Source: Chloroflexota bacterium (GTDB taxonomy: Bacteria; Chloroflexota; Limnocylindria; P2-11E). Taken from it: 64,000 nt of DNA. Position numbers and translations under genes: made by a program. The notes below the pieces were generated by a model. It was not told where the DNA came from. It searched no databases and worked only from the letters and a program-made list of their open reading frames with translations. Each line of letters opens with the position of its first letter. Position 1 is the stretch's first letter. Below are positions 2,974 to 46,159 of this stretch, in pieces. The stretch is taken from assembly GCA_038040345.1 (NCBI GenBank), contig JBBPIQ010000002.1, forward strand, positions 189,747 through 253,746, in the 5' to 3' direction.

Positions 2974-4330
2974 CTAGAGAGGTCGCAATGCCCTCAGAAA
3001 CTCATCGGCGAAAGACGCGATAGGCCGAAGGAAGCCGTCCGGTTGTATTCCCCCAATCAACAGCGCCACGAAAATCACGCCGCCGATGATTCCCGCAATC
3101 GGCCGTGGCTCAAGTACCCAACGTTCGATACCGCTTCCGAAGAGGGCGAGCACGGCGCGGAGCTGGCCGACGATCAGAAGGAGCGTGGCGACCACGAGCG
3201 CCGCGCCAGTGAACGGAGCGAACTGGTAGGCGATGAGCTCCATGAAGAAGCGGCCCGGGAATCCGAGAAGCGGCGGCGCGCCGATCAGCGCGAAGCCACC
3301 GACGACGAACGCGAGTGCGGCGAGCGGCGCCTTCCGCGCGGTCGGGCGCTCGGGCGCGCTGCGGCGCTCGAGCGTGCCCGCAGCAAGGAGCTGACCTGAC
3401 GCGGATGCGCCGGTGACGATCACGCTCGCAAGCGCGCCGATGATGCCGGGGCCCGACAGTGTCGCGATGCCGACGAGCGCGGCGCCGAGATTCGAGATCA
3501 CCGAGTAGACGACGAGACGACGCAGATCCGGCGCGCCGCTCGCCAGGAACGCGCCGCCGATGGCCGAGGTCAGTCCGATGCCATGCAACAGGTCTTGCAC
3601 CTTCACGACCTGCACGATCGCGGGCAGCAGGCCGGAGAGCGTGAGGATCTCCACGAACGCGATGAACGTCGTCGGGACCAGGACGCCGAAATACAACGCG
3701 AGCGACGCCGGCGGTACCTCGCCCGCGAGGAGCGCCGCGTGCGTGTGGAACGGGATGGCTGCGAGGAGCAGCGCGAAGGCGACGACGAGCACCACAACGA
3801 GGAGCACGAACGTGTTCGCGGGCTGCTCGTGCGGAAGGCTGGCAGCGAGCGCAAGCGCGGCGATGCCAAGACATCCGCCTAGCGCGACGAAGCCGAAGTG
3901 GCGGGTCGCCGCCTCGACCGAGCGATTCCGATGCACCTGGAAGGTGAATGACCCGACCGGCACGAGAAGTCCGAGAACCAGGAGACCGAAGATGGCGAGT
4001 GGCGCGGTGAGGACGAGCACCCCGAGTGAGGTCGCGCCGACCGCGAGCGCCGTGGGGAAGAAGTTGTACGCGGGTTCGTCTAGCCACACGCCGAGCACGA
4101 GGAGGAAGAGGGTCGCGAGGATCACGCCCGACGCGAGACTGCCCAGTCCGGTCGCACGGAGCTCGAGGTCGAGAAGAGTGCCCGTGGTGTCGAGCGGAGT
4201 CAGGAGGACGAGCGCGAGGGCGACGACGATCGCGACGAGCGAGAAGGGACCGACGATGTTGAGCCGCTTCCGGAGCACGAACGCACCGCACGCCGCGACC
4301 GCGAGGACGAGTGGCGCCGCCGCGATGATC
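2974..4330 (-). CDS. divergent proton-antiporter-like membrane subunit (NuoN/MrpD, Proton_antipo_M-like)
   Basis: polytopic; IPFHTHAALLAGEVPPASLAL resembles the PFHxWLPDAxxGPTPVSAL motif, PDLRRLVVYSVISNLG resembles DLKRLLAYSSISHMG; Arg-rich N-terminal part of ORF 2974..4968 is probably not translated, start approximate. Confidence 0.4.
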
Positions 4331-4916
4331 AATTCTCGCGCACCACACGCTCGTTCACGATGAGGAATCCGCCCGCGAGCGCGATAACGACCTCGACCCA
4401 TCCGAGCAAGAGAGAGAGACCGAGCTGCGGCACGGTGAGAAGACGAACGAGAAGCTCCACACCGGTGATCATCAGGATCGCACCGAGCGATCCGCGGACC
4501 GGGGTCCGAGCGGTCACGAGGATCGCGACGCCCGAAGAGATGAGCCAGAAGGCCGCGACCTGCGCCGTGACCCCGCTCGGATCCTCGCCGATCAGCGGGA
4601 CGCTGACGGTCTCGCTCGACGCGGTGCGAAGCGTCGCGAAGCACGCCGCCGTCGCCGCGGCCGCGACGATCGTCGCGAGCCAGAGCCGCCATCCGGGATC
4701 CTCGCCATATGTCCGGTCGCGCGCCGCCACGTAAAGGATCCCGCACGCCACAAGCGCACCGCAGCCTTCGACGGCGAGTTGGCTCACGGTGAGCTGGCCC
4801 GCGGTCACGACGTTCGCGGCGAGCGACACGCCGAGGAGCGCGACCGCCGAGTAGCGGAGCTGCCGCGAACCGTTCGCGGCGAGGGTCGCGAGCGCGACGA
4901 TGCCGAGGGGGATCAC
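4329..4916 (-). CDS. hydrophobic membrane protein, 195 aa
   Basis: ORF between two antiporter-like genes, several predicted TM helices. Confidence 0.3.
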   Translation of the reverse strand: MIPLGIVALATLAANGSRQLRYSAVALLGVSLAANVVTAGQLTVSQLAVEGCGALVACGILYVAARDRTYGEDPGWRLWLATIVAAAATAACFATLRTASSETVSVPLIGEDPSGVTAQVAAFWLISSGVAILVTARTPVRGSLGAILMITGVELLVRLLTVPQLGLSLLLGWVEVVIALAGGFLIVNERVVREN

Positions 4917-6734
4917 CTAGCGGGTCGACCAGACCAACAGCGCGACGATGAGGACCGCGGCCAGCCACACGCCGGCCCGCTGCTCGAAGAGCGCGAACCC
5001 ACCGGTGGCGACGGTCACGGCGCGCTCGAGCGCTCTAAACGTGGCGACTCCGGTGGGCACCGGGTCGGCCGCCCACACGAACCGTTGCAGTCGCGCGGCG
5101 AAGACCTGGAGGCCGGGCAGAAGCGGCCGCAGCATGCGCGCGGCGATGACGAGGATCGTCGCCGCGACGACCGAACCGATCGCGATGACCGGGTCGATCG
5201 GATCGAGCGGCCGTCGCAGAAGGGTGAGCGCGTCGGGGATCGGCAGCGACAGCAGGCTCGCGAGGAGCGCCGTGCTGAAAAGCGCGGCGACCGCGGCCGC
5301 GATATCGAGACCCGCCGGCGCTTCGCCCTGCGCCAGGCGCCGGCCGGCGTGCGCGAGCTCGAGCACGAGAACGACCATGACGACGAGAACCGCCGCCACC
5401 GCTGTCGTGGGATCCGCGGCGCTCGCCGCGCCGGTCGCGAGGCCGATGACACCGGTCACCGTCCAGACGCTCGTTGCCATGGTCGCCATATAGGCGCGAT
5501 GTGGCGGCATCCACACGCTCTCGAGGAGAGCGGCGAACGCCGCGCCCACCAGGATGAACAGGCCGGACGCGAGCGCGATCGGCGTGCCGACCGCGAACGC
5601 GATCCATAGGGTCGCAAGGGTCACGTCGTGGCGCGCGACCTCCCACTGCTCGGGAAGGGCGAGCGAGACGGCGGCGGCGTAGAGAACGGTCAGCGCAGCT
5701 GCCGCGAGCACGAAGTAGCTCCAATGGAGATCGTCCCACCCAGCCAGCACCGCGGCCGCGACGATCGTCGTCACGATCCCGCGCCGCGACGCGCGACCGC
5801 GCGCGCGCGCCCGCAGCGCGAATGCGACGAGCACAAGCCCGAGCAGAACGAGCCGCGGCACGAGTCCGATGAGCGGAAGCCCAAGGGTCGAAAGGTCGAT
5901 GCTCGTCACCCCGAGAAGACGAAGCAGCACGATCGACGCGGCCACACCCGCTGGCATCGCAAGGAGCCCGCGCAGTGGTTCGCGTTCCGCGGCGAGCAGA
6001 GCCTGGGCGGGCTGATAGCGCCACGGCACGAACGGGTAGAGGCCCGCGAAGAGGCCGGCGCCCGCGGTCGCGGCGAGGATCGCGCCAGGACTGATGGCGC
6101 CTGGGGAGATCGCGTCAAAGGCGAGTGACGCGCCTCCCTGCCGCGCGATGAGCAGCGCCGCCACGACGAATCCCTGGATCCCGACCGCGAAATACCCCGC
6201 GATCCGCATCGCCGAAGGTGCCGGCGCCACGAGCAGCGTCGCGAAAGCGCTCACAGCGGCGAGGACCGCGATGGCGACCGCCGCCGCGACCAGGTCGACC
6301 GTGACCACCACGGCGATGAAGGCGAAGCCGATGGCCAGGGCGAGCGAAGGGAGGAAGCGCGGGGAGCTCGCCGACCGCGCGTTGGCGAGAAGTGCGGCCG
6401 CGACATACGCGAACCCTGCGGAGACGGCCACTGCGCCGAGGCCATCGAGTCGGTACGACGCTTGGATGGTCGGTCCTCCGGCGGCCGACCACTCCCACAA
6501 GGCTCGGCCCGCGGCGAGGGCCGGATCGGTGAGCTGATAGAGAAGAAGGGGCGATATAGCGCCCAAAGTGGCGACCAAGAGGGCGGTCGGCACGCGCCAT
6601 GCCTGTGCGATGCGTCGCGGGGCGACGAGCAGCGCGACCAGCGACAACGTGATCGCGGCCGCGAACAACGTGAATTCCGCTCGCACTATCACCCTGCGGT
6701 AAGGTAGCCGAGGTGGATTTGAGACTCCTCCCAC
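4917..6734 (-). CDS. large polytopic membrane protein, weakly NuoL/MrpA-like
   Basis: 605-aa hydrophobic ORF; SVWMPPHRAYMATMATSVWTV weakly resembles the WLPDA...SALIHAATMV motif; N-terminal boundary uncertain. Confidence 0.35.
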   Translation of the reverse strand: MGGVSNPPRLPYRRVIVRAEFTLFAAAITLSLVALLVAPRRIAQAWRVPTALLVATLGAISPLLLYQLTDPALAAGRALWEWSAAGGPTIQASYRLDGLGAVAVSAGFAYVAAALLANARSASSPRFLPSLALAIGFAFIAVVVTVDLVAAAVAIAVLAAVSAFATLLVAPAPSAMRIAGYFAVGIQGFVVAALLIARQGGASLAFDAISPGAISPGAILAATAGAGLFAGLYPFVPWRYQPAQALLAAEREPLRGLLAMPAGVAASIVLLRLLGVTSIDLSTLGLPLIGLVPRLVLLGLVLVAFALRARARGRASRRGIVTTIVAAAVLAGWDDLHWSYFVLAAAALTVLYAAAVSLALPEQWEVARHDVTLATLWIAFAVGTPIALASGLFILVGAAFAALLESVWMPPHRAYMATMATSVWTVTGVIGLATGAASAADPTTAVAAVLVVMVVLVLELAHAGRRLAQGEAPAGLDIAAAVAALFSTALLASLLSLPIPDALTLLRRPLDPIDPVIAIGSVVAATILVIAARMLRPLLPGLQVFAARLQRFVWAADPVPTGVATFRALERAVTVATGGFALFEQRAGVWLAAVLIVALLVWSTR

Positions 6735-8152
6735 AGCTGCAGCTCAAGGTCACGCCGAAACAGATCGCGGCGAACTACATCCTTCAACTTAGCTCGCTCG
6801 AGCTGCAGGACGTCATTAACCAGGAGCTCCAGGAAAATCCTGCCCTCGATCTCGAGGAGGTGCAGGCCTGCCCGCTCTGCGGTCAGCCCCTCGCCGGCCG
6901 GGTCTGCCTGAACTGCTTCGGCACCGGCAAAGGCCCGTACAAGGGCAGCGAGGACCTCGAGACCGAGCCCCTCGAGGGCACCAGCCTCATGCAGCGCGAC
7001 GAGGAGGAGGATGAGCTCGACCCGATCGTTCGCGCGGAGGCCGAGCAGACCCTCGCCGAGTACCTCTCGTGGAACACACGCGTGCTGCTGCCGAAGCGGC
7101 TGTACCCCGTCGCCGAGTACATCATCGGGAACCTGAACGACTTCGGGTACCTCGAGCTGCCGCTCGAGGAGATCGCGAAGACGCTCAAGGTGTCCGTCGC
7201 CGACGCTACCGAGGTTCTCAAGACCATCCAGGGCATCGAGCCGTGGGGCATCGGCGCTCGCGACACCCGCGAGTGCCTTCTTATCCAGATCGACCACCTG
7301 TCCGAGATCGGCGAGGAGGTGCCCGCGCACGTGCGGTCGATCATTGCCGACCATCTCCGCGAGCTGGGGGAGCACAAGTTCGGCGACATTGCGCAGGCCC
7401 TTCGCGTCTCGCGCGAGGAAGTCCAGCAGGGCTGGGACTGGGTGAAACAGAGCCTCAACCCGTACCCGGCGCACGCGTTCGCCGCTGGCCCTGACGGCAC
7501 CAGCATCGGCGGCCGCCAGGTCGCACTCCGCCCTGACGTGATCATCGTCCGTAACGAGAAGGGCGACTTCGAGGTCGAGGTCATCGAATCGCGGCGGTTC
7601 TCGCTCCGGGTGAACCCGGTCTACCGCCAGCTCGTCGGACAGCTCCAGGCCGCGCGGAGCGCGGGCGCGGCGGCACCGACGATGACCGACGACGAACGCC
7701 AGCACATCCGGCAGTACGTCACGCGCGCGAAGTTCTTCATCGACAACATCAACCAGCGGCGCCAGACGATCGGCCGCATTACCGACGTCATCGTCGAGTG
7801 CCAGAGGGATTTCCTGGACAAGGGCGTTCAGTCGCTCCGGCCGCTCACGCGCGCGGAGGTGGGGGAGCGCATCGGGATGCACGAGTCGACGGTGAGCCGC
7901 GCCACGGCCGGCAAGTTCGTGCTCCTGCCCGCCGGCGAGGTGATCCCGTTCTCCACCTTCTTCACGGCTTCGCTCGGCGTGAAGGACGTGATCAAGAACA
8001 TCATCGAGGCCGAGGACCGCTCGCGGCCCTACTCGGACCAAGAGATCGTCGAAAAGCTTCGCGAGGACAACGGCATCCGCCTCGCGCGCCGCACCGTCGC
8101 GAAATACCGCGAAGAGCTACAGATCCTCCCTGCGAGACTGAGGAAGCGCTAG
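6713..8152 (+). CDS. rpoN: RNA polymerase sigma-54 factor
   Basis: GTG start with upstream AAGG; Gln/Leu-rich region I; HTH ESTVSRA; RpoN box ARRTVAKYREEL at C-terminus. Confidence 0.85.
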   Translation: MDLRLLPQLQLKVTPKQIAANYILQLSSLELQDVINQELQENPALDLEEVQACPLCGQPLAGRVCLNCFGTGKGPYKGSEDLETEPLEGTSLMQRDEEEDELDPIVRAEAEQTLAEYLSWNTRVLLPKRLYPVAEYIIGNLNDFGYLELPLEEIAKTLKVSVADATEVLKTIQGIEPWGIGARDTRECLLIQIDHLSEIGEEVPAHVRSIIADHLRELGEHKFGDIAQALRVSREEVQQGWDWVKQSLNPYPAHAFAAGPDGTSIGGRQVALRPDVIIVRNEKGDFEVEVIESRRFSLRVNPVYRQLVGQLQAARSAGAAAPTMTDDERQHIRQYVTRAKFFIDNINQRRQTIGRITDVIVECQRDFLDKGVQSLRPLTRAEVGERIGMHESTVSRATAGKFVLLPAGEVIPFSTFFTASLGVKDVIKNIIEAEDRSRPYSDQEIVEKLREDNGIRLARRTVAKYREELQILPARLRKR

Positions 8153-8274: not shown

Positions 8275-8553
8275 CTAAGCCCGGGTCTTCCTCTTCGGAG
8301 CGTTTCCCTTAGGAGGTGGGGCGCCCAGCGTCTTGGAGATTTCGTCGACCGAGGCCGACTCGATGTGGTAGCCGAAGGACGTCCGACGCACGCCGGGCAG
8401 GTCCTTGCCACGCATGGCGTCGCGAAGGGCGTGCTCGCGCCAGCCGATCTTCGTCGCGAGCTCGGCCGTCGTCAGCCAGTCGCGGTCCTTGCTCTTCGTC
8501 TTTTCCGATACGTCGGCCTTGGGCTGGGACTTCGATGCTTTTTGCGGTGGCAC
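8275..8553 (-). CDS. small Lys-rich DNA-binding protein, excisionase/MerR-like HTH
   Basis: 92 aa; WLTTAELATKIGWREHALRDAMRGKDLPGVRR resembles HTH_17; basic tails at both ends. Confidence 0.4.
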   Translation of the reverse strand: MPPQKASKSQPKADVSEKTKSKDRDWLTTAELATKIGWREHALRDAMRGKDLPGVRRTSFGYHIESASVDEISKTLGAPPPKGNAPKRKTRA

Positions 8554-8673: not shown

Positions 8674-10800
8674 TTGAACGCATCGCCTCTTCTGTGGGTC
8701 GTGCCGATCTCTGGCGTCCTGGCACTGGCGGTCGCGGGCTACTTCGCGTACGACGTCCTGCGTTCGCCGACCGGCACTCCCGCGATGCAGAAGGTCGCCG
8801 CGGCGATTTACGTCGCGGCTGTGGCGTTCATGCAGCGCCAGTACCGGACCATCGCGCTCCTCGCCCTCGGCGGCATGGTCGTCATTGGTCTCGTCATCTA
8901 CTTCTTCGAATCGGCGCCCGGCGTTTCCCCGATGGAGCTCGCGATCAAGACATCGATCGCGTTCATCGTCGGTGCAGCGTGCTCGATGGCCGCGGGCATC
9001 GTCGGTATGTTCGTCGCGGTGAAGTCGAATCTACGAACCGCGGCCGCGGCGCAGCATTCGGTCGCAGACGCTCTTCGCATATCGCTTCGCGGCGGTGCGG
9101 TCTCCGGGATCCTCGTCGTCGGTCTGTCGTTGATAGGCGTGTTCGTCATGTTCATCGCGTACGGCGGATTCGAGCATCCCGACCAGGCCCCATTCACGAT
9201 CGTCGGCTTCGGTTTCGGCGCGTCGTTCGTCGCACTCTTCGCGCAGCTTGGCGGCGGGATCTACACGAAGGCCGCCGACCTCGGCGCCGACCTCGTGGGC
9301 AAAATCGAGGCCGGCATTCCCGAGGACGACCCGCGCAACGCGGCTGTGATCGCGGACCTCGTCGGCGACAACGTCGGCGACTGCGCCGGTCGTGGCGCGG
9401 ATCTCTTCGAGTCCACCGCCGCCGAGAACATCGGCGCGATGATCCTGGGCGTCGCGATCTACGCGGTCACCCAGAACCCGGCGTGGATCCTGTTCCCTCT
9501 CGTGGTCCGTGGCTTCGGCCTGATCGCGAGCATGATCGGCATCTTCACCGTGCGCGGCAGCGACACGAAGAGCCCGATGTCGTCGCTCAACCTTGGTTAC
9601 TACATCACGATCGCGCTCTCCATCGCCGGCATGTTCCTCGTCACGAACGTGATGCTCAACGAGAAAGGCGCCGGCATCTGGTTCTTCTATGCCGGCGTCG
9701 TCGGCATCCTCACGAGCCTCGCGTTCGTCTACATCACGCAGTACTACACATCGGGCGACTGGCGACCGGTGAAGGAGATCGCGGAGGCCGCGAAGACGGG
9801 TCCGGCCACGACGATCATCTCGGGGATCGCGGTCGGCTTCGAGACCACCGCCGCGTCGGTGATCACCATCTCCATCGCTCTTTTCCTCAGCCACTGGTTC
9901 GGCGACCAGTGGGCCGCCGCGACCGGTCTCCCGCACGGCGGTATCTACGGCACCGCCGTTGCGACGATGGGGATGCTCATGAGCGCCGCGTTCATCCTGG
10001 CCGAGGACACCTTCGGTCCCATCACGGACAACGCCGGTGGCGTCGCGTCGATGGCCCGCGCGTCGGAGGAGACCCGTGAACGTACGGACCGTCTCGATGC
10101 CGTCGGCAACACCACCAAGGCACTCACCAAGGGGTACGCCGTCGGTTCGGCCGCGCTCGCGGCCTTCCTGCTCTTCTCGGCGTATCTCGACAAGATCGCG
10201 CAACTCACCGGCAAGCCGTTCAACTCTGTCGACCTCGCGAAGGTCGACGTCTTCCTCGGCGGCTTCCTCGGGGCGATGCTCGTGTACCTCTTCTCCTCGC
10301 TCGCGATCCGCGCGGTCGGCCGCGCCGGCGCCGCGATCATCCAAGAGGTGCGGACACAGTTCCGCGAGCACCCCGGGATCATGGCCGGCACCGAGGAACC
10401 GAACTACGCGCGCGTTGTAGACATCACCACCGCTTCGGCGCTGCGCAACATGATCGCGCCAGGCCTCCTCGCCATCGCCGCCCCAATAGTCGTCGGCATT
10501 CTGCTCAAGGCCGAGGCCGAGGCGGCGATGCTGATGGTCGGCACGATGGCCGGCGTCATCCTCGCCACTGTTCTGAACAACGGCGGCGGCGCGTGGGACA
10601 ACGCGAAGAAGTACATCGAGTCCGGGATGCTCAAGGACGAAAACGGCAAGGTCCTCGGCAAAGGCACGCCGGCGCACGCCGCTGCGGTCGTCGGCGACAC
10701 CGTCGGAGATCCGTTCAAAGACACCGCCGGCCCGAGCCTGCACGTCCTCATCAAGCTCCTCGCGACGATCACGCTCGTTCTCGCTCCGCTCTTCGTCTAG
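8674..10800 (+). CDS. hppA: membrane-bound proton-translocating pyrophosphatase
   Basis: TTG start after GGGGGT; about 16 TM segments; signature GDNVGDCAGRGADLFES and DTVGDPFKDTAGPSL. Confidence 0.9.
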   Translation: MNASPLLWVVPISGVLALAVAGYFAYDVLRSPTGTPAMQKVAAAIYVAAVAFMQRQYRTIALLALGGMVVIGLVIYFFESAPGVSPMELAIKTSIAFIVGAACSMAAGIVGMFVAVKSNLRTAAAAQHSVADALRISLRGGAVSGILVVGLSLIGVFVMFIAYGGFEHPDQAPFTIVGFGFGASFVALFAQLGGGIYTKAADLGADLVGKIEAGIPEDDPRNAAVIADLVGDNVGDCAGRGADLFESTAAENIGAMILGVAIYAVTQNPAWILFPLVVRGFGLIASMIGIFTVRGSDTKSPMSSLNLGYYITIALSIAGMFLVTNVMLNEKGAGIWFFYAGVVGILTSLAFVYITQYYTSGDWRPVKEIAEAAKTGPATTIISGIAVGFETTAASVITISIALFLSHWFGDQWAAATGLPHGGIYGTAVATMGMLMSAAFILAEDTFGPITDNAGGVASMARASEETRERTDRLDAVGNTTKALTKGYAVGSAALAAFLLFSAYLDKIAQLTGKPFNSVDLAKVDVFLGGFLGAMLVYLFSSLAIRAVGRAGAAIIQEVRTQFREHPGIMAGTEEPNYARVVDITTASALRNMIAPGLLAIAAPIVVGILLKAEAEAAMLMVGTMAGVILATVLNNGGGAWDNAKKYIESGMLKDENGKVLGKGTPAHAAAVVGDTVGDPFKDTAGPSLHVLIKLLATITLVLAPLFV

Positions 10801-11028: not shown

Positions 11029-11784
11029 GTGGCAGGCTCGATCGACTTCAATAGTGATTTGGGCGAGGGCGCCGGCACCGATATGGCCCTCATGCCTTTG
11101 ATAACGAGCGCGAACATCGCGTGCGGTGGGCACGCCGGAAACGAGAACACCATGCGCACCACCGTCGAGCTCGCGATGAAAAACAAAGTCGCGATCGGTG
11201 CGCATCCCGGTTACCCCGATCGCGAACGGTTCGGGCGCGTGGCGATGGACATCCCGGCCCGCGAGCTGATCGAGTCGATCCGTCGCCAGATCGACTCGCT
11301 CGTCGGGATCGCGTCGCGCGTGGGCGCACGCGTCACGCACGTCAAGGTTCACGGTGCGCTGTACAACCAAGGGGAGCGTGACGCGACGATCGCGCGGAAC
11401 ATCATCTTCGGCGTCCAGGCGGCGACCGGCGGGCACGAGCTCGTCATCGTCGCGCCACCCGGCTCGGCGATGCTGCAAGAGGCGAGCGGCATGGGAATGA
11501 AGGTCGCGCGAGAAGGCTTTGTGGATCGCGCGTACGAATCCGACGGCACGCTGCAGTCGCGCTCGGTCGCGGGCTCGGTGCTCACCGATCCAGCGGATGC
11601 GGTGCGGCAGGCCCTTTCGTTCGTGAAGAACGGCGGGGTGACCGCGGTCGACGGGACATTCGTAAAGCTCGCGGTCGACACGCTGTGCCTCCACGGCGAC
11701 ACGCCCGGCGCGCCCGACATCGCGCGTGCGGTCCGTGACGCGCTCGGCAAAGCCAAGGTGAAGGTCGCGCCGTTCCGGTCCTGA
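11029..11784 (+). CDS. pxpA: 5-oxoprolinase subunit A (LamB/YcsF family)
   Basis: IDFNSDLGEG...ANIACGGHAGN...GAHPGYPD motifs. Confidence 0.85.
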   Translation: MAGSIDFNSDLGEGAGTDMALMPLITSANIACGGHAGNENTMRTTVELAMKNKVAIGAHPGYPDRERFGRVAMDIPARELIESIRRQIDSLVGIASRVGARVTHVKVHGALYNQGERDATIARNIIFGVQAATGGHELVIVAPPGSAMLQEASGMGMKVAREGFVDRAYESDGTLQSRSVAGSVLTDPADAVRQALSFVKNGGVTAVDGTFVKLAVDTLCLHGDTPGAPDIARAVRDALGKAKVKVAPFRS

Positions 11785-12413
11785 GCGATCCACGGATCGC
11801 TCCCTTCGGCGACGGCGCGCTCCTCGTCGAGCTCGGCGACCACATCGATGAGGCTGTCGCGGACCGTGCTCGCGCGCTCGCGGACGCGTGGGACGCGCAA
11901 GGTCACGGGCGCGCGGTCCCGGCGTACGCCTCCGTCGTCGTGCGGTTCGACCCACTTCGCATCGCGCCGGCCGACGCTGAGCGCGAAGTCATGCGGCTAG
12001 CGAAGACCCCGGGTCGCGTGGCTATCGAAGGTGGTCGCGAGGTCGAGATCCCGACGCACTACGACGGACCGGATCTTCTCGAGACGGCCGAGCGGTCGAA
12101 GCTCTCCGTCGAGGAGCTCGTCGCGCTGCACTCGGGTCGCACATATCGCGCGTTCTTCCTCGGGTTCCTCCCCGGCTTCGCGTACTGCGGCGTTCTCGAG
12201 CCGCGGATCGTCGCGCCTCGTCTGGTGCGCCCGCGCGAGCGCGTCCCCGCGGGGTCCGTGGCGATCGCCGACGGCCAGACCTCGATCTATCCATTCGATT
12301 CGCCTGGCGGCTGGCGACTCATCGGACGGACCGACGCCCGCATCTTCGACAGTACGAGAGAGCCGCCCGCGCTCATTCGGCCAGGAGATCGCGTGCGGTT
12401 CGTCCCGCTGTGA
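11784..12413 (+). CDS. pxpB: 5-oxoprolinase subunit B (KipI-like)
   Basis: in-frame extension upstream of ORF 11940..12413 (DPRIAPFGDGALLVELGD...); start codon not resolved. Confidence 0.75.
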   Translation, partial: SDPRIAPFGDGALLVELGDHIDEAVADRARALADAWDAQGHGRAVPAYASVVVRFDPLRIAPADAEREVMRLAKTPGRVAIEGGREVEIPTHYDGPDLLETAERSKLSVEELVALHSGRTYRAFFLGFLPGFAYCGVLEPRIVAPRLVRPRERVPAGSVAIADGQTSIYPFDSPGGWRLIGRTDARIFDSTREPPALIRPGDRVRFVPL

Positions 12414-15059: not shown

Positions 15060-15653
15060 TCAGGCCTTCTTGCCGAGACGCTCGACGTATTTCGCGAGCA
15101 CGTCCGTCTCGACGTTGACGAGGTCGCCCGGCGCTAACGAACCGAGTGTCGTGCGCTCGGCAGTATTGGGGATGAGCGCGATCTCGAAATAGGTTTTGCC
15201 GAGGGCCGCGATCGCAAGCGATACGCCGTCAAGCGTGATGAACCCCCTCACCACGATGTAGCGGGCGAGGCCCTTGGGCACCGCGAAACGCAGGCGCGCC
15301 GCCCCACCGCCCTGCTCGCGACGACCGACCAGCTTGGTCGTCGCGTCGACCTGCCCTTGCACGAAGTGGCCGCCAAGTGCCGTCGTCGGCGTCGCCGCAG
15401 GCTCGAGGTTCACGCGCGTTCCGCGGATCGCACGGCCGAGTGTCGTACGCGAGAGGGTCTCCGCGACGACGTCGACGGCGAACCCGTGGGTGTCCCGCTC
15501 CACGACGGTGAGGCACACGCCGGCGACGTTGACGTTCGCGTCGATGCCGAGGTCCTGGGCCACATGTGACGAAGCGATCTCGAGTCGGAGACCCGACGCC
15601 TTCGGAGCGGTGTGTCGGACTGCACCTATCTCCGCGACGGCCCCGGTGAACAT
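15060..15653 (-). CDS. ribE: riboflavin synthase
   Basis: MFTGAVAEIGAV...GVCLTVVE...GFITLDGVSLAIA, two lumazine-binding repeats. Confidence 0.85.
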   Translation of the reverse strand: MFTGAVAEIGAVRHTAPKASGLRLEIASSHVAQDLGIDANVNVAGVCLTVVERDTHGFAVDVVAETLSRTTLGRAIRGTRVNLEPAATPTTALGGHFVQGQVDATTKLVGRREQGGGAARLRFAVPKGLARYIVVRGFITLDGVSLAIAALGKTYFEIALIPNTAERTTLGSLAPGDLVNVETDVLAKYVERLGKKA

Positions 15654-16721
15654 CTAGTCGAGCGTTCCTTCCAGCGCCAGATCGGCGCCGAGCCTGCGCA
15701 CGCGCACGTCGTGAAGCTCGCTCGCCTTCGGGACACCTTCGAGCGCCGGCGGTCCGTCACCGCCCGCAACGGGCGACATGAGAAGGAGCACGCGATCGGC
15801 GAGACCGCCACGCACGAGCGCGCCGGCCACCTGCGGCCCGGCCTCGCTCATCACGGTATTCACGCCGTGCTCGCCGAGCCAGCGGAGCACAGCGCCGAGG
15901 TCGAGTCCACCGTCGGCGCGCGGAGCGGTGACCAGCAGCACTCCCGCCTCGCGAAGCTTGTTCGTGCGGCGCACGTCGGCATCGCGCGCGACGAAGATCA
16001 CGGTGCGCTGCGGATCCTTCGCCCGCACGATCTTCGCTGTGATCGGAGTGCGCGCGTCCGCGTCGACGATGACGCGCAGCGGATCCCGTCCTTTGACCTC
16101 GCGTACCGTGAGTGCGGGGTCGTCGGCGAGAACGCTATCGATCCCGGCGAGGACCGCATCCGTGCGGTCGCGCAGGCGATGCACCTCGCGAAGGGCGGGC
16201 TTCCCCGAAAGGTCGCGCCGCCCGGGGACTGCCGCGCGGCCGTCGACCGTGGTCGCGAGCTTCAGCAGCACGAATGGCCGCCCGCGCTTCAGACGAGACA
16301 CGAATCCCGCGTTGAGGCGCTCGGCTTCATCTCGGAGAAGGCCCTCCTCGACCTCGATCCCGGCGGCGCGGAGCCCGCGTATGCCCTTGCCGTCGGTGCG
16401 CGGATCCGGGTCGCGCATCGCGACGACGACCCGCGCGATGCCCGCCTCGCGAACCGCGTCGACGCACGGCGGCGTGCGGCCCTGGTGCGCGCACGGCTCG
16501 AGATTCGTGAAGAGCGTCGCGCCGCGCGCGGCCTCGCCGGCCTTGCGGAACGCGTTGACCTCCGCGTGCGCCTCGCCGGCCGCGTGGTAGTAACCCTCGC
16601 CGACCACCTTGCTATCGCGAACAACAACAGCGCCGACCAGAGGATCGGGGCTGGTCCTGCCGGCACCGCGCACGGCGAGTCGGAGCGCGCGGCGCATGTG
16701 GATGGTGTCCGTGTCGATCAC
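15654..16721 (-). CDS. ribD: bifunctional pyrimidine deaminase / 5-amino-6-(5-phosphoribosylamino)uracil reductase
   Basis: HAEVNA and EPCAHQGRTPPC deaminase motifs followed by a reductase domain. Confidence 0.85.
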   Translation of the reverse strand: MIDTDTIHMRRALRLAVRGAGRTSPDPLVGAVVVRDSKVVGEGYYHAAGEAHAEVNAFRKAGEAARGATLFTNLEPCAHQGRTPPCVDAVREAGIARVVVAMRDPDPRTDGKGIRGLRAAGIEVEEGLLRDEAERLNAGFVSRLKRGRPFVLLKLATTVDGRAAVPGRRDLSGKPALREVHRLRDRTDAVLAGIDSVLADDPALTVREVKGRDPLRVIVDADARTPITAKIVRAKDPQRTVIFVARDADVRRTNKLREAGVLLVTAPRADGGLDLGAVLRWLGEHGVNTVMSEAGPQVAGALVRGGLADRVLLLMSPVAGGDGPPALEGVPKASELHDVRVRRLGADLALEGTLD

Positions 16722-16936
16722 GGCTGCTAGTCTGCGGCCCTCGTGACCGTCGTGAAGAAGCCCGGCGCCACGAACCCCGGGGGACGAGCTCCTTCAGTCC
16801 GCTCTCGCGCAGCTTGACCGCGCCGCGAAGGCGATCAATCTCGACCCGAGGATGCACCGCTTCCTGCAGCAGCCCGAGGGGAGAACACTCGGCCCCGATT
16901 GCATAATTATCCACTCGACCGCATAATTCCCCGTCT

Positions 16937-17959
16937 ATGCCGACGAAGGTCGCGATCGTGGGCGTCACCGGTTATGCGGGCGGCGAGCTCGCGCGTCTTG
17001 TGCTGCGACACCCCGAGGCGAGGCTCGTCGCCGCCGTGGCGCGCTCGCATAAAGGCGAGTCGTTGCGTGCCGTGCAGCCGCACCTGCACGCCGCACCGGA
17101 TTCGCTCGTGGTCGGGACGGACGTAGACGACGCCGAGGTCGTCTTCACGGCGTTGCCGGCGGGCGAGGCCGCGAAGCAGGCTCGCGCATGGCTCGACGAC
17201 GGCCGCACCGTCATCGACATCGGGAGCGACTTCCGCCTCCGCGATCCGAAGCTCTACGAGCGCTGGTACGGCTACACGCATCCCGCACCCGAGCTGCTGA
17301 AGGAAGCGGTCTACGGCCTCACCGAGCTGACGCGCGATCGCGTGCGAACCGCGCGCCTCATCGCCAACCCCGGGTGCTATCCGACCGCGGCGCTGCTGGC
17401 GCTGCTTCCCGCGCTGAAGGCGGGACTCGTGACCGAGGACGTCATCGTCGACGCGAAGTCGGGCGTGAGCGGCGCCGGTCATGCCGTCGAAGACGCGTTC
17501 CTCTTCGGCACGATCGACGAGAGCGTTCGCCCATACGGCGTGCCGAAGCACCGGCACACGCCGGAGATCGCGCAGGAAGCCGCGGCGCTTCTCGGCAAGC
17601 CGCTCAAGCTCACGTTCACGCCGCACCTCATTCCAATGAACCGCGGCCTCATCGCGTCCTGTTATGCACCGCTTCGTTCCGGCAAGACCATCAAGGACGT
17701 TGCGGCTACGTACGCGAGGGAATACGCGGAGGAGCCCTTCGTACGCGTCCTCGATACCTATCCCTCGACAAAGGCGACCCTCGGCAGCAACTGGTGCCTC
17801 GTGCACGCCCTCGTCGACGAGGAGAACTCGCGTCTCGTCGCGTTCGCTGCGCTCGATAACCTGGTGAAAGGCGCTGCGGGCTCGGCCCTGCAGAACTTCA
17901 ACGCGCGGTTCGGCTATCCCGAAACGATGGGGCTCGAGGCGCTGCCGCTGTGGCCGTGA
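16937..17959 (+). CDS. argC: N-acetyl-gamma-glutamyl-phosphate reductase
   Basis: MPTKVAIVGVTGYAGGEL...ANPGCYPTA. Confidence 0.9.
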   Translation: MPTKVAIVGVTGYAGGELARLVLRHPEARLVAAVARSHKGESLRAVQPHLHAAPDSLVVGTDVDDAEVVFTALPAGEAAKQARAWLDDGRTVIDIGSDFRLRDPKLYERWYGYTHPAPELLKEAVYGLTELTRDRVRTARLIANPGCYPTAALLALLPALKAGLVTEDVIVDAKSGVSGAGHAVEDAFLFGTIDESVRPYGVPKHRHTPEIAQEAAALLGKPLKLTFTPHLIPMNRGLIASCYAPLRSGKTIKDVAATYAREYAEEPFVRVLDTYPSTKATLGSNWCLVHALVDEENSRLVAFAALDNLVKGAAGSALQNFNARFGYPETMGLEALPLWP

Positions 17960-19131
17960 TCAACGACGTCCTCGGATTCACGGTGGGCGTCGCGTCGGCG
18001 GGTGTAAAGGACGGGACGCGCCGGCGCACGGACGTCGCGCTCATCGTCTCGGACCGCGACTGCGCGGCGGCGGGTGTCTTCACCACGAACGAGGTGATCG
18101 CCGCACCGTGCGTCGTGACGCGGAAGCATCTCGAGCACGGAAGGCTTCGCGCGATCGTCGTGAACTCGGGCAACGCCAACGCCTGCACCGGAGAGGCGGG
18201 CGAGCGCAACGCGATTGCGATGGCGCAGGCGGCGGCCGACAAGATCGGTTGCGATCCGCACGAGGTCGCCGTGGCGAGCACGGGCGTCATCGGGGTCCCG
18301 CTGCCCGTCGAACGGATCGCGGCCGCCGTGTCCGCGATGAGCCTGCGCGCCGGTGACTGGAACGAGGTCGCGAAGGCGATCATGACGACCGACACCCGGC
18401 CCAAGCTGCAGAGCGTCGAGGTCCCCCTCGCTGGGGGGGTGGTGCACCTGCGCGGAGTCGCGAAGGGCGCCGGGATGATCCATCCCAACATGGCCACGCT
18501 GCTCGCGTTCGTGTTGACCGACGCGGAGGTCGCGGCCGAAGAGCTTCAGGAAATGCTCGAGGACGCCGCGGACGCGAGCTTCAACCTGATCAGCATCGAT
18601 GGCGACACGAGCACCAACGACACGCTCCTCATCCTCGCGAACGGCGCGTCGGGTATCGAGCCCCGTGGCGACGACCTGGGGAAGTTCGGCGCAGCGGTCC
18701 GCGGTCTTTGCGAGACCCTGGCCCGAGAGGTCCTCGCCGACGGCGAAGGGGTCACCAAGGTCTTCGAGGTCCAGGTTAGTGGCGCGGCGTCCGCCGAGGA
18801 CGCGCGACGCGCGGCGCGGACGATCACCACTTCGAATCTCGTGAAGACGGCCATCCACGGCGCGGATCCGAACTGGGGCCGCATCCTCGCGGCCGCGGGA
18901 CGCTCCGGCGCGAAGGTGGATCAGACCAAAGCCAGCGTGCACATCGCCGACGTCGCGGTGTTCGCGCAGGGCTCGCCGCGCGCGTTCGACAGTGACGCGG
19001 TGCGCCGGGTGTTCGAGCAACGGGACATCACCATCGGCGTGGACCTCGGCGTGGGTTCAGAGTCCGCGCACGCCTGGGGCACCGATCTCTCGGCGGACTA
19101 CGTGCGGATCAATGCCGAATACACCACGTAA
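17950..19131 (+). CDS. argJ: glutamate N-acetyltransferase / ornithine acetyltransferase
   Basis: GTG start overlapping argC stop; NSGNANACTGE...ATLLAFVLTDA. Confidence 0.9.
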   Translation: MAVINDVLGFTVGVASAGVKDGTRRRTDVALIVSDRDCAAAGVFTTNEVIAAPCVVTRKHLEHGRLRAIVVNSGNANACTGEAGERNAIAMAQAAADKIGCDPHEVAVASTGVIGVPLPVERIAAAVSAMSLRAGDWNEVAKAIMTTDTRPKLQSVEVPLAGGVVHLRGVAKGAGMIHPNMATLLAFVLTDAEVAAEELQEMLEDAADASFNLISIDGDTSTNDTLLILANGASGIEPRGDDLGKFGAAVRGLCETLAREVLADGEGVTKVFEVQVSGAASAEDARRAARTITTSNLVKTAIHGADPNWGRILAAAGRSGAKVDQTKASVHIADVAVFAQGSPRAFDSDAVRRVFEQRDITIGVDLGVGSESAHAWGTDLSADYVRINAEYTT

Positions 19132-19900
19132 GGACCTGCTCGTGTTGAAGATCGGCGGATCGGTGGGCGCCGAGAACGACGCCGCGCTCGACGCGGTCGT
19201 CGCTCTGAACGACGCGGGTCATCCGCTCGTCGTCGTGCACGGCGGCGGCCCGCTCGTGGGCGAGTGGGCGGAACGGATGGGCATGCAGACGCGCTTCGTG
19301 CGCGGGCTCCGCGTCAGCGACGCCGAAACGCGCGACGTCGCGCTCGCCGTGCTCGGCGGGCTCGCGAACGGGCGCGTCGTCGCCACGCTCATCGCGCGCG
19401 GCGTCCCTGCGGTCGGCCTCACCGGCATCGACGGCGGGATGCTCCGCGCCGAACGCGAGGACGCCGAGCTTGGTTTCGTGGGGCGCGTAACCCTCGTCGA
19501 CAGCGCGCTCCTTGAGGAGCTCATCGACGCGGGCCGCGTTCCGATCGTGGCGCCGGCCGCGCTCGATCGCACCTCCGGTGAAGTGCTCAACGTCAACGGC
19601 GACGCGGCCGCGGGCGCGATCGCTGCAAGCCTCAGCGCGCGACTTCTCGTGTTCGTCACCGACGTGCCCGGCGTTCGCGGCAAGGACGGTCGCGTGATCG
19701 CTCAGCTCGACGCGGACAAAGCCCGCGCGCTCGTCGACGATGGAACGATCGAGGGAGGCATGCTCCCCAAGGTCGAGGCGTGCCTCATCGCGGCCGCTGC
19801 GGGGTGCCGTGCGGCCATCGTGGCGACGCGCGGGGTCGATTCCGTCGAGCGGCTCCTCGCCGGCGAACAGGTCGGCACCGTCTTCGAGGCCGCGGCATGA
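19112..19900 (+). CDS. argB: acetylglutamate kinase
   Basis: LVLKIGGS...VVVHGGGP; ATG at 19112 or GTG at 19142; the ORF-track 18992 start is an upstream extension. Confidence 0.85.
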   Translation: MPNTPRKDLLVLKIGGSVGAENDAALDAVVALNDAGHPLVVVHGGGPLVGEWAERMGMQTRFVRGLRVSDAETRDVALAVLGGLANGRVVATLIARGVPAVGLTGIDGGMLRAEREDAELGFVGRVTLVDSALLEELIDAGRVPIVAPAALDRTSGEVLNVNGDAAAGAIAASLSARLLVFVTDVPGVRGKDGRVIAQLDADKARALVDDGTIEGGMLPKVEACLIAAAAGCRAAIVATRGVDSVERLLAGEQVGTVFEAAA

Positions 19901-20378
19901 GGGACGCGCTCGCGCGCAAGCATCACCGGCAGCAGGCGCTGCTTCGCGTCGTCTCCCGGCAGCGACTATCGACGCAGGCCGACCTCGTCCGCGCGCTCCG
20001 TGGCGCAGGGTTCGCCGCGACACAGGCGACGGTCTCGCGCGACATCGTCGAGCTCGGCCTCGTGAAGGTGGCGCGCGACGGGACGCACGCCTACGCTCCG
20101 CCCTCCGCGGCCGCGCCCGGCGGCGGGATTGAGCGGCTCCGCCGGTTCTGCGAGGACTACCCGGTGGAGGGAGCGCTGGCCACGAATCTCGTGGTCCTGC
20201 GATCGCTTCCCGGGACCGCGAATGCGCTCGCCGCGGCGCTCGATGCGTCGCGGTTGGAAGAGGCGGTCGGCACGCTTGCCGGAGACGACACGGTCTTCAT
20301 CGCGGCCACCAACGAACGCCATGCGCGGGCGCTCCTCGGCCGACTGGCGACGTTCGGCATCGCGCGGAAGGGGACGAG

Positions 20379-20382
<4 letters not shown>
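19897..20382 (+). CDS. argR: arginine repressor
   Basis: ATG overlapping argB stop; RQQALLRVVSRQRLSTQADLVRAL...ATVSRDIVELGLVKV. Confidence 0.8.
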
Positions 20383-21670
<1,288 letters not shown>

Positions 21671-21674
<4 letters not shown>

Positions 21675-43300: not shown

Positions 43301-43607
43301 TGTCTACCGCGCCGAACACCGCGACGACGGCGTCCCCGATGTACTTCTCGATGAGGCCGCCGGACGCCCTGATCTCCACGGCGATCGCGTCCCACGCGGC
43401 GCGCATGTTCTCGTGGAGCTCTTCCGGATCGAGGCGCTCCGCAAGCGCGGTGAACCCGGAGATGTCCGCGAAGAGGACCGTGACCTGCTTCGTCTCGCCC
43501 TCGACGGGCGCGCGCGCGAGAAGCCGCGCGCCGCATTTTCCACAGAAGCTGTACGCAACAGGCATCTCCGTCGCGCACTTCGGACAGGTGATCGTCGCTC
43601 CCCGCAT
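40323..43607 (-). CDS. zinc-ribbon / class III adenylate-guanylate cyclase / STAND-type ATPase / TPR protein
   Basis: CPKC...CGKC ribbon; VTVLFADISGFT...YIGDAVVAVFG cyclase motifs; Walker A GEAGLGKT; long alpha-helical repeat C-terminus. Confidence 0.75.
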   Translation of the reverse strand: MRGATITCPKCATEMPVAYSFCGKCGARLLARAPVEGETKQVTVLFADISGFTALAERLDPEELHENMRAAWDAIAVEIRASGGLIEKYIGDAVVAVFGAVDNEVDHPARAQRSALAILGALDRENERIAERTGRNLALRIGINTGLAVAGAVGDKESEFGVLGDAVNVAARLEQAAEPGEVLVGDATYRLAPGLFAYEPHPPVAAKGKSAPLVAWRLLRVETAATDRGRAPLIGRDQEMGLLLGALDEALAGKGHIVSIVGEAGLGKTRLVDELLADPRALGARVARARCSPYDAHRAYGAISDLLRRALAIGTNAPTEIAHRMLTETVPSMEPEAAKLVLAALGYSLTLPPLSGETRRKLLDRAIRDLILRVARTQPVILALSDVQWADAASQELLAALAPALASTAALFVTTYRPELNPPWSTSRGHVQIRLTPLDRGSSAALLQALLPASALPQEAVDDVVSRSAGSPTYIEETARWLVATGVVVVREDASPLADVSRMRELPDALPMLLLRRAELAVGPERRVLHATAVAARACEPGLLRALFGQDLDVDSALASLCARGLLELASHGDYRFRQSLLRELVYDSISPRNREDLHGRIGQVIESVMPEVAVQQPELLANHFAESTHVTRAIDYTMRSGDRAVALYALADGLHHYRAAARLAERLPGGGQSERARALVEACDAARALGHEDALAIAEDALSGPLSDDVVRAALRRRAGELAARAHETQRSAEHLAEADRLTPAEGRERAELTLAKAYLARSDERPAEALAVGRTAVKEALAANDRGLALAAEEAVAIFAADSGAADEALRATERCVEHATAIGDLSGLARALALLTYAALDRGELAKAEDLAHQLLGAESRLGNVSGEAGALRALGRAFFGLGRFAEAEATLGRALGLADPLAQGPQPADPASTLLVLGSLAIERGDFISAATTLSEARAVAERSPARAHLAPRIAAELARLALYQGSLEDAGQHAAAAHAAAIEHECRRCGAGIAATLIEVACASDDLAMADARRTEGLEHAFRLGLPVASAEIRAASARLLAAHGDVAGARNECIEALAVFEENGPTYLAERTRRRIAELDLEGKAESA

Positions 43608-46061: not shown

Positions 46062-46091
46062 GCCGATAGCTCTTCCTCGGCCCACGGGCGC

Positions 46092-46128: not shown

Positions 46129-46159
46129 TAGTTATTTAACCGGAAGGTACAATAGATAG

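What the first reader, a model, noticed from the sequence alone, without database searches (positions are those of the whole stretch)
6713..8152. Sigma-54 with a Cys4 zinc-ribbon-like insertion, in a very high-GC genome
The RpoN assignment is firm (RpoN box ARRTVAKYRE). Between region I and the core-binding domain sits CPLCGQPLAGRVCLNCFG, a CxxC-N9-CxxC element not normally present in RpoN. Sigma-54 is generally absent from classical Actinobacteria, so the host may belong to another high-GC lineage. No enhancer-binding protein gene was recognised in this window.
Basis: partly seen in the sequence, partly recalled or inferred. Interest (0 to 1): 0.5.

Follow-up and report, generated by a model that had tools for sequence, protein, structure and literature searches.

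The report
Sigma-54 with conserved zinc-ribbon motif
This gene encodes a normal sigma-54 transcription factor from a soil Chloroflexota bacterium that carries a strictly conserved four-cysteine (probably zinc-binding) mini-domain in its normally unstructured linker; the feature is shared by a large, mostly uncultured branch of sigma-54 proteins and I found no paper describing it.

Summary
Window 6713-8152 (+) encodes a 479-aa RpoN with all three sigma-54 domains, an RpoN box and a sigma-54 fold. Four of its five cysteines form C53-x2-C56-x8-C65-x2-C68; the spacer is 8 residues, not 9.

No enhancer-binding protein gene lies in the window.

The motif is not a private insertion:
- All 120 close homologues and all 78 N-terminally complete related loci keep the four Cys, with synonymous TGC/TGT variation.
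- So do 89 of the 102 nearest full-length 50%-identity cluster representatives (33-56% identity).
- Labelled carriers include Ktedonobacterales and three separate Armatimonadota clusters.
- Spacing (8) and position (7 residues after NPAL[E/D]) are nearly fixed, while the intervening residues vary.

Best reading: a canonical enhancer-dependent sigma-54 whose region II.1 is a small Cys4 metal (probably zinc) ribbon held next to region I. Its role is inferred, not shown: most likely a structural plug or anchor in the polymerase cleft. A thiol/metal switch is the main rival.

I found no literature description. I class it as a new variant of a known kind, of moderate interest.

The parts
6713..8152 (+). 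rpoN coding sequence (479 aa plus stop), sigma-54
   Evidence: ORF. TIGR02395 scores 323 bits against a cutoff of 277. Pfam AID, CBD and DBD all match. PDB sigma-54 match at 5.7e-49. Foldseek top hits are E. coli sigmaN in RNAP.
6713..6859 (+). Region I (residues 1-49), the activator-interacting / inhibitory domain, ending in ENPALDLEE
   Evidence: Pfam PF00309 matches residues 8-47, E=3.5e-10. N42, P43 and A44 are invariant in the diverse alignments. AF2 helices at 15-25 and 28-41.
6869..6916 (+). Cys4 element C53-P-L-C56-(8 residues)-C65-L-N-C68, a predicted metal (zinc) ribbon at the start of region II
   Evidence: Sequence. The four Cys are invariant. P54, G57 and L60 are the only other conserved positions. 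Only sub-threshold Pfam zinc-ribbon matches. AF2 gives beta bridges and no helix, pLDDT 59-66.
6917..7033 (+). Rest of region II (residues 69-107): a variable linker followed by the acidic RDEEEDELDP motif (residues 95-104, nt 6995-7024)
   Evidence: Columns are variable and gap-rich, then conserved D/E x4-[FY]-D-P. AF2 pLDDT below 50 for 72-110. The motif corresponds to the acidic DDE motif of RII.3 described in PMC5095919.
7034..7624 (+). Core-binding domain (residues 108-304)
   Evidence: Pfam PF04963, E=5.1e-42. AF2 pLDDT 83-98.
7700..8149 (+). DNA-binding domain (residues 330-479), with the HTH at about 378-398 and the RpoN box ARRTVAKYRE (nt 8084-8113)
   Evidence: Pfam PF04552, E=2.2e-41. 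RpoN box located. A458, R459, R460, T461, V462, K464, Y465 and R466 are invariant.

Best explanation
Window 6713-8152 encodes the sigma-54 (RpoN) of a soil Chloroflexota bacterium of class Limnocylindria. It has the standard parts: region I, core-binding domain, HTH and RpoN box. It presumably works as sigma-54 does elsewhere: it binds core RNA polymerase, recognises -24/-12 promoters, and stays locked in a closed complex until an AAA+ enhancer-binding protein remodels region I.

Its special feature is at the very start of the variable region II. Seven residues after the NPAL[E/D] end of region I there is a 16-residue CPxCG-x7-CxxC element. I infer that it binds one metal ion, most probably Zn2+, through four cysteines and folds into a minimal zinc ribbon (two knuckles on a beta-hairpin).

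In solved proteobacterial holoenzymes this stretch (RII.1) lies in the downstream-DNA channel of RNA polymerase. It leads into the acidic RII.2/3 'finger' that passes the active site and the RNA exit path. The most likely role is therefore structural: a compact, rigid RII.1 module, fixed in register with region I, that helps plug or anchor sigma-54 in the polymerase cleft in the closed state and has to be displaced on activation.

Shown: sigma-54 identity; presence, position and strict conservation of the Cys4 element across a large sigma-54 branch; co-occurrence of a Cys4-type rpoN with a canonical EBP.
Inferred: metal binding, the ribbon fold, the location in RNAP and the function.
For: Identity:
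- All three Pfam sigma-54 domains match and TIGR02395 is above its cutoff.
- Full-length phmmer matches to PDB sigma-54 chains.
- Foldseek top 30 hits are all sigma-54.

Conservation of the Cys4 element:
- 120/120 homologues at 75% identity or more.
- 78/78 N-terminally complete loci keep all four Cys, using both TGC and TGT codons, while positions 58, 61 and 67 vary freely.
- Loci at 55-66% identity keep it.
- 89/102 of the nearest full-length 50%-cluster representatives have at least 4 Cys there.
- 119/119 and 108/109 hits of two profile searches have it.
- The Cys are invariant in four independent alignments ([C70 about 90%], 53).

Geometry and knuckle signature:
- Spacer is 8 in 420/444 and offset from NPALx is 7 in 427/444.
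- Pro after the first Cys (311/444; 36/53), Gly after the second Cys (41/53) and a hydrophobic residue at position 60 (Leu in 37/53).
- Weak hits only to zinc-ribbon families: DZR, DZR_2, L32p, Zn_Ribbon_1.

Structure and size:
- AF2 shows short beta bridges and no helix across 45-71, then a disordered acidic linker.
- RII is about 16 residues longer in Cys4 carriers than in Cys-less relatives: median 55 vs 38.5.

Context:
- An NtrC-type EBP lies directly upstream of a Cys4-type rpoN in L081.
Against: - No direct evidence of metal binding.
- AF2 confidence for the ribbon is only moderate (pLDDT 59-66), and I could not inspect coordinates for Cys geometry.
- No Pfam zinc-ribbon model reaches its threshold.
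- The placement in the downstream DNA channel is extrapolated from E. coli / K. pneumoniae structures whose RII has no sequence similarity here. The phmmer alignment across this stretch is low-confidence.
- Scattered Cys-less relatives show the element is dispensable for basic sigma-54 function.
- No EBP gene was found in the window or by the GAFTGA / Walker A / ELFGH motif scan of 1.02 Mb of related loci. That scan would miss variant loops such as the GAFTNA of the L081 EBP. In one search the L081 EBP matched the related loci only through its receiver domain, not its AAA+ domain. No -24/-12 promoter was found either: 28 matches against 45 expected. Enhancer dependence in this lineage therefore rests on the intact region I only.
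Confidence: 0.55

Rival explanations
1. The Cys4 site is a regulatory thiol/metal switch. Oxidation of the cysteines, or loss or exchange of the metal, would unfold the ribbon and change how region I / region II block the polymerase cleft. Sigma-54 activity would then respond directly to redox or metal status. This is analogous to zinc-thiolate switches such as the ZAS anti-sigma RsrA, or the Cys-rich metal-sensing domain of CorE-type ECF sigma factors.
For: A four-Cys metal site sits at a fixed distance from the regulatory region I. There is precedent for sigma or anti-sigma factors regulated through Cys-rich metal sites (PMC8999054). Carriers are largely soil and aerobic-interface lineages. 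No other sensory input is visible in the window.
Against: Many Cys4 zinc ribbons are purely structural. There is no conserved His or extra Cys, and no flanking residues typical of redox-tuned sites. The motif is kept in very Cys-rich homologues (10-13 Cys), which I guess come from anaerobes, where an oxidative switch would have little use. No experimental data exist.
Confidence: 0.2
2. The ribbon is a docking or stability element. It would bind a partner protein, or shield the N-terminus from proteolysis, doing in cis what the zinc-ribbon protein FlgZ (HP0958, DUF164) does in trans for Helicobacter pylori RpoN.
For: The zinc-ribbon CXXC motifs of FlgZ are needed for RpoN accumulation, and DUF164 proteins often co-occur with RpoN (PMC3372290). 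Zinc ribbons are common protein-protein modules.
Against: There is no sequence relationship to DUF164. Surface positions of the ribbon are not conserved across the family, which argues against a conserved specific partner. I could not test whether DUF164 is present or absent in these genomes.
Confidence: 0.1
3. The site binds iron, either as a rubredoxin-like Fe(Cys)4 centre or as an Fe-S cluster, rather than zinc. That would give an electron-transfer or O2/NO-sensing centre.
For: CPxCG is also the rubredoxin knuckle signature (established knowledge). There are four invariant Cys.
Against: The 8-residue spacing and 16-residue size match mini zinc ribbons, not rubredoxin (about 30 residues between knuckles) or usual Fe-S motifs. 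The weak Pfam matches are to zinc ribbons only.
Confidence: 0.07
4. The cysteines are a neutral lineage-specific peculiarity of a variable linker, with no function.
For: Region II is poorly conserved and partly dispensable in model sigma-54 (PMC5095919). Some relatives lack the Cys.
Against: The four Cys are invariant across sequences down to about 31-33% identity, with synonymous codon turnover, while neighbouring residues vary. Spacing and register are fixed.
Confidence: 0.02

Closest known systems
Canonical sigma-54 (RpoN/SigN) of E. coli, K. pneumoniae and Aquifex aeolicus (PDB 5UI8, 5NWT, 7QWP, 9MSG, 5UI5)
   Same: Same domain order and fold: region I, region II with an acidic D/E motif, core-binding domain, ELH-HTH and RpoN box. 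About 27-29% identity over the full length.
   Different: In the model proteins region II is acidic, Cys-free and regarded as lacking predicted structure (alignment). Here its first 16 residues are a conserved Cys4 knuckle pair at a fixed register from region I.
Generic mini zinc ribbons (Pfam DZR PF12773, DZR_2 PF18912, Zn_Ribbon_1 PF13240, ribosomal protein L32p)
   Same: A CPxCG knuckle, a short hairpin and a second CxxC. Weak profile similarity, E from 0.003 to 0.35.
   Different: All matches fall below the gathering thresholds. The element is embedded in a sigma factor linker rather than being a free-standing or terminal domain.
H. pylori FlgZ (HP0958, DUF164), the zinc-ribbon protein that protects RpoN
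   Same: A CXXC...CXXC zinc ribbon functionally tied to sigma-54 (PMC3372290).
   Different: It is a separate protein acting in trans with a long coiled coil, has no sequence similarity, and its ribbon has a different spacing. The link is an analogy only.
CorE-like ECF sigma factors (Cys-rich C-terminal domain) and ZAS anti-sigma factors
   Same: Cys-based metal sites that regulate sigma activity (PMC8999054).
   Different: They belong to the sigma-70 family or are anti-sigma proteins. The site is at the C-terminus or has an HxxxCxxC signature. Here the site is in sigma-54 region II with a plain Cys4 pattern and no demonstrated sensing.
TFIIB/TFB N-terminal zinc ribbon followed by B-reader/B-linker
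   Same: A zinc ribbon adjacent to a flexible acidic segment that threads through the polymerase active-site / RNA exit region. Sigma-54 RII.3 is compared with the TFIIB linker in PMC5095919.
   Different: There is no homology. The ribbon would lie at the opposite (downstream-channel) end of the threaded segment, whereas the B-ribbon binds the dock at the RNA exit (the B-ribbon location is from my own knowledge). Foldseek matches to TFIIB are insignificant (E>0.08).

Membership tests
Sigma-54 (RpoN) family | N-terminal region I / activator-interacting domain (PF00309) | tested here: met
   Residues 8-47, E=3.5e-10, 40 bits against a cutoff of 23.8.
Sigma-54 (RpoN) family | Core-binding domain (PF04963) and DNA-binding domain (PF04552) with an RpoN box ARRTVAKYR | tested here: met
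   E=5.1e-42 and 2.2e-41. RpoN box at residues 458-467, invariant in homologues.
Sigma-54 (RpoN) family | Equivalog-level full-length model (TIGR02395) above its trusted cutoff | tested here: met
   323.4 bits against a cutoff of 277.35.
Sigma-54 (RpoN) family | Sigma-54 three-dimensional fold | tested here: met
   AF2 mean pLDDT 81.5. Foldseek PDB ranks 1-30 are sigma-54 chains, best E=1.1e-25.
Sigma-54 (RpoN) family | Dependence on AAA+ enhancer-binding proteins and GG-N10-GC promoters | not testable with these tools
   No EBP in the window. The -24/-12 pattern is not enriched. A Cys4-type rpoN in L081 has an adjacent NtrC-type EBP. The whole genome was not available.
Zinc ribbon (Cys4 mini-ribbon) | Two CxxC knuckles separated by a short hairpin, with a CPxCG-type first knuckle | tested here: met
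   C53-P-L-C56-G57 ... C65-L-N-C68. Consensus CPxCG-x7-CxxC.
Zinc ribbon (Cys4 mini-ribbon) | Significant match to a curated zinc-ribbon profile | tested here: not met
   Best is DZR at E=0.003-0.005, 17-18 bits against a cutoff of 27.3. All others are weaker.
Zinc ribbon (Cys4 mini-ribbon) | Beta-hairpin knuckle fold bringing the four Cys together | tested here: inconclusive
   AF2 gives beta bridges at 45-49, 52, 59, 64 and 71 with no helix, but pLDDT is only 59-66 and coordinates could not be inspected.
Zinc ribbon (Cys4 mini-ribbon) | Stoichiometric metal binding | not testable with these tools
   Needs purified protein and metal analysis.
ZAS-type zinc anti-sigma motif / CorE-type Cys-rich domain | HxxxCxxC signature (ZAS), or a C-terminal Cys-rich domain plus CXC linker (CorE) | tested here: not met
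   No His in or near the motif. The element is N-terminal in a sigma-54 protein. The CorE description is from PMC8999054.
DUF164 / FlgZ | Sequence match to the DUF164 zinc-ribbon domain | tested here: not met
   No such hit in Pfam scans of the whole protein or of the ribbon peptides.

The most novel reading that the evidence does not exclude
The Cys4 ribbon could be a built-in signal-sensing or gating module. By folding or unfolding with zinc or redox state, it would open or close the downstream-DNA channel, or change how tightly region I locks the closed complex. This branch of sigma-54 would then integrate an environmental signal itself, in addition to, or partly instead of, its ATPase activators. 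That would be the first sigma-54 with an intrinsic sensory element, and it would give region II.1 a defined structure and function.
Probability: 0.15. Interest if true: 0.75.

Novelty: new variant of a known kind. Interest (0 to 1): 0.45.

Why it matters
Reviews describe sigma-54 region II as a variable, acidic, largely dispensable linker without predicted structure. Yet holoenzyme structures show it threading through the downstream DNA channel, the template path and the RNA exit channel.

A strictly conserved metal-ribbon at a fixed register from region I, kept across a deep branch of sigma-54 (Chloroflexota, Armatimonadota and many unnamed lineages), would give region II.1 a folded module. 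It would be an obvious handle for experiments: Cys-to-Ser mutants, metal analysis, cryo-EM.

If it proves regulatory, it adds a new input to enhancer-dependent transcription. If it is only structural, it still shows that the polymerase-cleft plug of sigma-54 has been solved differently in Terrabacteria-type lineages than in Proteobacteria. It would also be a useful sequence marker for this sigma-54 subfamily.

Tried and rejected
- **Private insertion or sequencing oddity.** Rejected: the motif is present in every close homologue and locus.
- **Assignment to a named zinc-finger family.** Pfam scans of four ribbon peptides at E up to 10 gave only sub-threshold zinc-ribbon hits.
- **EBP in the window.** Six-frame regex for GAFTGA / Walker A / ELFGH found nothing. 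tblastn with the L081 EBP gave a best E of 0.5. Pfam on about 40 of the 52 candidate ORFs from the GC3-based call found none. The 1094-aa AAA_16 protein at 40323-43607 is a cyclase/STAND-type regulator, not a sigma-54 activator.
- **Sigma-54 promoters.** TGGCAC-N5-TTGC with up to 2 mismatches gave 28 hits against 45 expected, so there is no enrichment. The best hit (51837, 1 mismatch) lies inside overlapping ORFs.
- **Taxonomic breadth through cluster look-ups.** Three calls gave few names. The Dormibacteraeota label (P0460) is probably a mis-binned Limnocylindria contig, because its motif is nearly identical to that of P0487 and it groups with Limnocylindria in the tree.
- **Contig look-ups** of P0492 and P0504 gave no organism names.
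- **Structure.** Two AF2 runs gave only moderate confidence for the ribbon. Foldseek is uninformative for a 16-residue element.
- **Literature.** Six searches found no description of a Cys4 or zinc element in sigma-54.
- **tRNA and Rfam scans** found only two tRNA-Ser genes.
Full report

The window has an open reading frame at 6713-8152 on the + strand (GTG start, 479 codons). Its codon-position GC values (0.68/0.39/0.90) are those of a genuine gene in this 63-72% GC sequence. An AAGG lies about 9 nt upstream of the GTG. The N-terminus MDLRLLPQ lines up with the N-termini of homologues, several of which have an in-frame stop just upstream.

The peptide CPLCGQPLAGRVCLNCFG is at residues 53-70 (nt 6869-6922). 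ARRTVAKYRE is at residues 458-467. One detail of the finding is wrong: the two CxxC pairs are separated by 8 residues, not 9.

The protein has five cysteines. Four make up the motif, and the fifth is the invariant Cys of the RECLL motif in the core-binding domain.

**2. What is the protein?**

It is an unambiguous sigma-54.
- Pfam finds the activator-interacting domain (residues 8-47), the core-binding domain (108-304) and the DNA-binding domain (330-479), all above threshold.
- NCBIfam TIGR02395 scores 323 bits against a cutoff of 277.
- phmmer aligns it end to end with E. coli / K. pneumoniae sigma-54 chains in the PDB, at 5.7e-49.
- An AlphaFold2 model (mean pLDDT 81.5) has sigma-54 chains in RNA polymerase complexes as its 30 best Foldseek matches in the PDB, the best at 1.1e-25.

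**3. Who is the host?**

The closest proteins (75-93% identity) and loci (up to 97%) come from soil and groundwater metagenome-assembled genomes labelled Chloroflexota / Candidatus Limnocylindria. A few nearly identical contigs carry implausible labels (Udaeobacter, Bathyarchaeia, Saccharimonadales), which I read as binning errors.

Sigma-54 had already been noted in 'some Chloroflexi' (PMC3162934).

The window is ordinary chromosome. It holds M16 peptidases, a H+-pyrophosphatase, pxpA/B-like genes, riboflavin and arginine biosynthesis genes, tRNA synthetases and a PBP.

Gene order around rpoN is conserved across the class:
- two unannotatable membrane proteins, divergent and upstream;
- a small 92-aa protein, convergent and downstream;
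- then the H+-PPase.

**4. How widespread is the Cys4 element?**

This is the central result.
- All 120 listed homologues at 75% identity or more have CxxC-N8-CxxC.
- In 78 of 78 related genomic loci with a complete 5' end, the four cysteine codons are kept. Both TGC and TGT are used at each position, while residues 58, 61 and 67 vary widely.
- Loci at 55-66% identity keep it.
- An exhaustive HMMER search of 1.84 billion 50%-identity cluster representatives found 14,271 sigma-54 relatives, of which I could inspect the best 150. Of the 102 that are full length, 89 have at least four Cys within 45 residues after the NPAL motif.
- Two profile searches returned 119/119 and 108/109 carriers. The single exception (P0474, 428 aa) has lost the second knuckle.
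- The cysteines are invariant columns in alignments whose members share as little as about 31% identity with the window protein.
- Over all 467 full-length relatives gathered, 444 carry the motif. The spacer is 8 in 420 of them, and the first Cys is 7 residues after NPALx in 427.

Source labels for carriers are few, since most carriers are unnamed metagenomic sequences. They include Limnocylindria, Ktedonobacterales, unclassified Chloroflexota and three separate Armatimonadota clusters.

In a crude neighbour-joining tree built from the core-binding and DNA-binding domains only, the dozen Cys-less sequences are scattered among carriers. This suggests an old acquisition with repeated loss, but the tree is too star-like to be firm.

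The E. coli and K. pneumoniae proteins have no cysteine in the corresponding stretch.

So the element is absent from model sigma-54 but is the rule in this branch.

**5. What is the element?**

Apart from the four Cys, only three positions are conserved: Pro after the first Cys, Gly after the second, and a hydrophobic residue in the hairpin. This is the classic CPxCG knuckle pattern of small zinc ribbons (established knowledge).

Pfam scans of ribbon peptides give only sub-threshold hits, and all are to zinc-ribbon-type families: DZR, DZR_2, L32p and Zn_Ribbon_1. AlphaFold2 gives short beta bridges (45-49, 52, 59, 64, 71) and no helix, with moderate confidence (pLDDT 59-66). It then gives a disordered stretch at 72-110 that ends in the conserved acidic D/E-x-[FY]-DP motif.

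Region II is about 16 residues longer in carriers than in Cys-less relatives, with medians of 55 and 38.5. That difference matches the size of the element. Relative to its nearest Cys-less kin it behaves as an insertion, although region II here is no longer than in E. coli.

I conclude, by inference, that it is a single Cys4 metal site, most probably zinc, forming a minimal ribbon.

**6. How does it most likely work?**

In the solved holoenzymes, region I together with the ELH-HTH caps the cleft. RII.1 lies in the downstream-DNA channel, RII.2 on the template-strand path, and RII.3 (the DDE motif) in the RNA exit path leading to the core-binding domain (PMC5095919).

The Cys4 element occupies the RII.1 position in the sequence. 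It is held at a nearly invariant 7-residue distance from the end of region I. The acidic finger is retained.

The simplest reading is a compact, rigid RII.1 module. It would help plug or anchor sigma-54 in the cleft in the closed complex and move when an activator remodels region I.

Canonical activator dependence is supported by two observations: region I is intact, and an NtrC-type EBP lies immediately upstream of a Cys4-type rpoN in locus L081. It is not shown for this genome. There is no EBP in the window and no excess of -24/-12-like sites.

Rivals are:
- a thiol/metal switch, with precedents in CorE-type ECF sigmas and ZAS anti-sigmas;
- a stability or docking element, analogous to the trans-acting zinc-ribbon protein FlgZ that protects H. 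pylori RpoN;
- an iron site;
- a functionless relic, which the conservation pattern excludes.

**7. Comparison with what is known, and novelty**

The protein is a member of the sigma-54 family by every testable criterion. The Cys4 element meets the pattern definition of a zinc ribbon but no curated profile. It is not a ZAS, CorE or DUF164 domain.

Six full-text searches found no paper describing cysteines or a zinc site in sigma-54 region II. Recent reviews still describe region II as an acidic variable linker.

The library lacks many subscription papers, so absence of a report is not proof. The databases annotate these proteins simply as 'RNA polymerase factor sigma-54'.

I class it as a new variant of a known kind. 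The gene in this window is one ordinary member of a large group that shares the feature.

**8. Limits**

- Metal binding, fold, location in RNA polymerase and function are all inferred.
- Only the top 150 of about 14,000 representatives were inspected, and taxonomy is known for only a handful.
- The tree is crude.
- The genome outside the window was not available for counting EBPs or promoters.

Noticed in passing
window 8275-8553 (-): A 92-aa basic protein, convergent with rpoN, has no Pfam or NCBIfam family (only DUF3489 at E=0.007). It is still 80-94% identical and in the same position in 67 of 80 Limnocylindria rpoN loci, so it is better conserved than RpoN at comparable distance.
   Followed up: partly
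window 4329-4916 (-) and 4917-6734 (-): A 195-aa protein and a 605-aa polytopic membrane protein have no hit in Pfam or NCBIfam. They are syntenic divergent neighbours of rpoN in 62 and 72 of 80 loci. The longest-ORF start of the 605-aa gene (6734) overlaps the rpoN start (6713) by 22 nt, so its true start is probably further in and the shared promoter region is very short.
   Followed up: partly
L081 4152-5561 (+), next to Cys4-type rpoN at 6001-7401: An NtrC-type enhancer-binding protein (receiver + Sigma54_activat + HTH_8) lies directly upstream of a Cys4-type rpoN. Its signature loop reads GAFTNA instead of GAFTGA.
   Followed up: no
loci L001, L009, L028, L034, L071, L079; protein P0460: Contigs with 54-97% identity to Limnocylindria rpoN are deposited under unrelated bin names: Udaeobacter, Bathyarchaeia, Saccharimonadales, Acidiferrales, Binatia and Dormibacteraeota. 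These are probably mis-binned contigs in the SMAG catalogue, so taxon labels of such MAG proteins should be used with care.
   Followed up: partly
protein P0474 (428 aa): This sigma-54 relative keeps only the first CxxC knuckle (CPTCGQPIEGDPLTLV...) and lacks about 45 residues of region II. It could be a natural deletion variant or an assembly artefact.
   Followed up: no
window 40323-43607 (-): A 1094-aa protein combines an adenylate/guanylate cyclase domain, an AAA_16 ATPase and MalT-like TPR repeats (a STAND-type signalling protein). It is not a sigma-54 activator.
   Followed up: no
window about 46000-60000: GC content drops to 63-66%, against 67-72% elsewhere. The region holds an ArsR-family regulator, duplicated AHSA1/SRPBCC and DUF1801 genes, a glyoxalase, several ORFs without family hits, and tRNA-Ser(TGA) at 56651. 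It could be a variable or acquired segment.
   Followed up: no
window 8674-10800 (+); 11029-12413 (+); 15060-21674: The neighbours are housekeeping genes: a membrane H+-pyrophosphatase, LamB/YcsF plus carboxyltransferase (5-oxoprolinase-like) genes, riboflavin synthase/RibD, and an argC-argJ-argB...argG cluster. The sigma-54 gene is not next to the lptB/hpf/ptsN genes that flank rpoN in Proteobacteria; that last comparison is from my own knowledge.
   Followed up: partly
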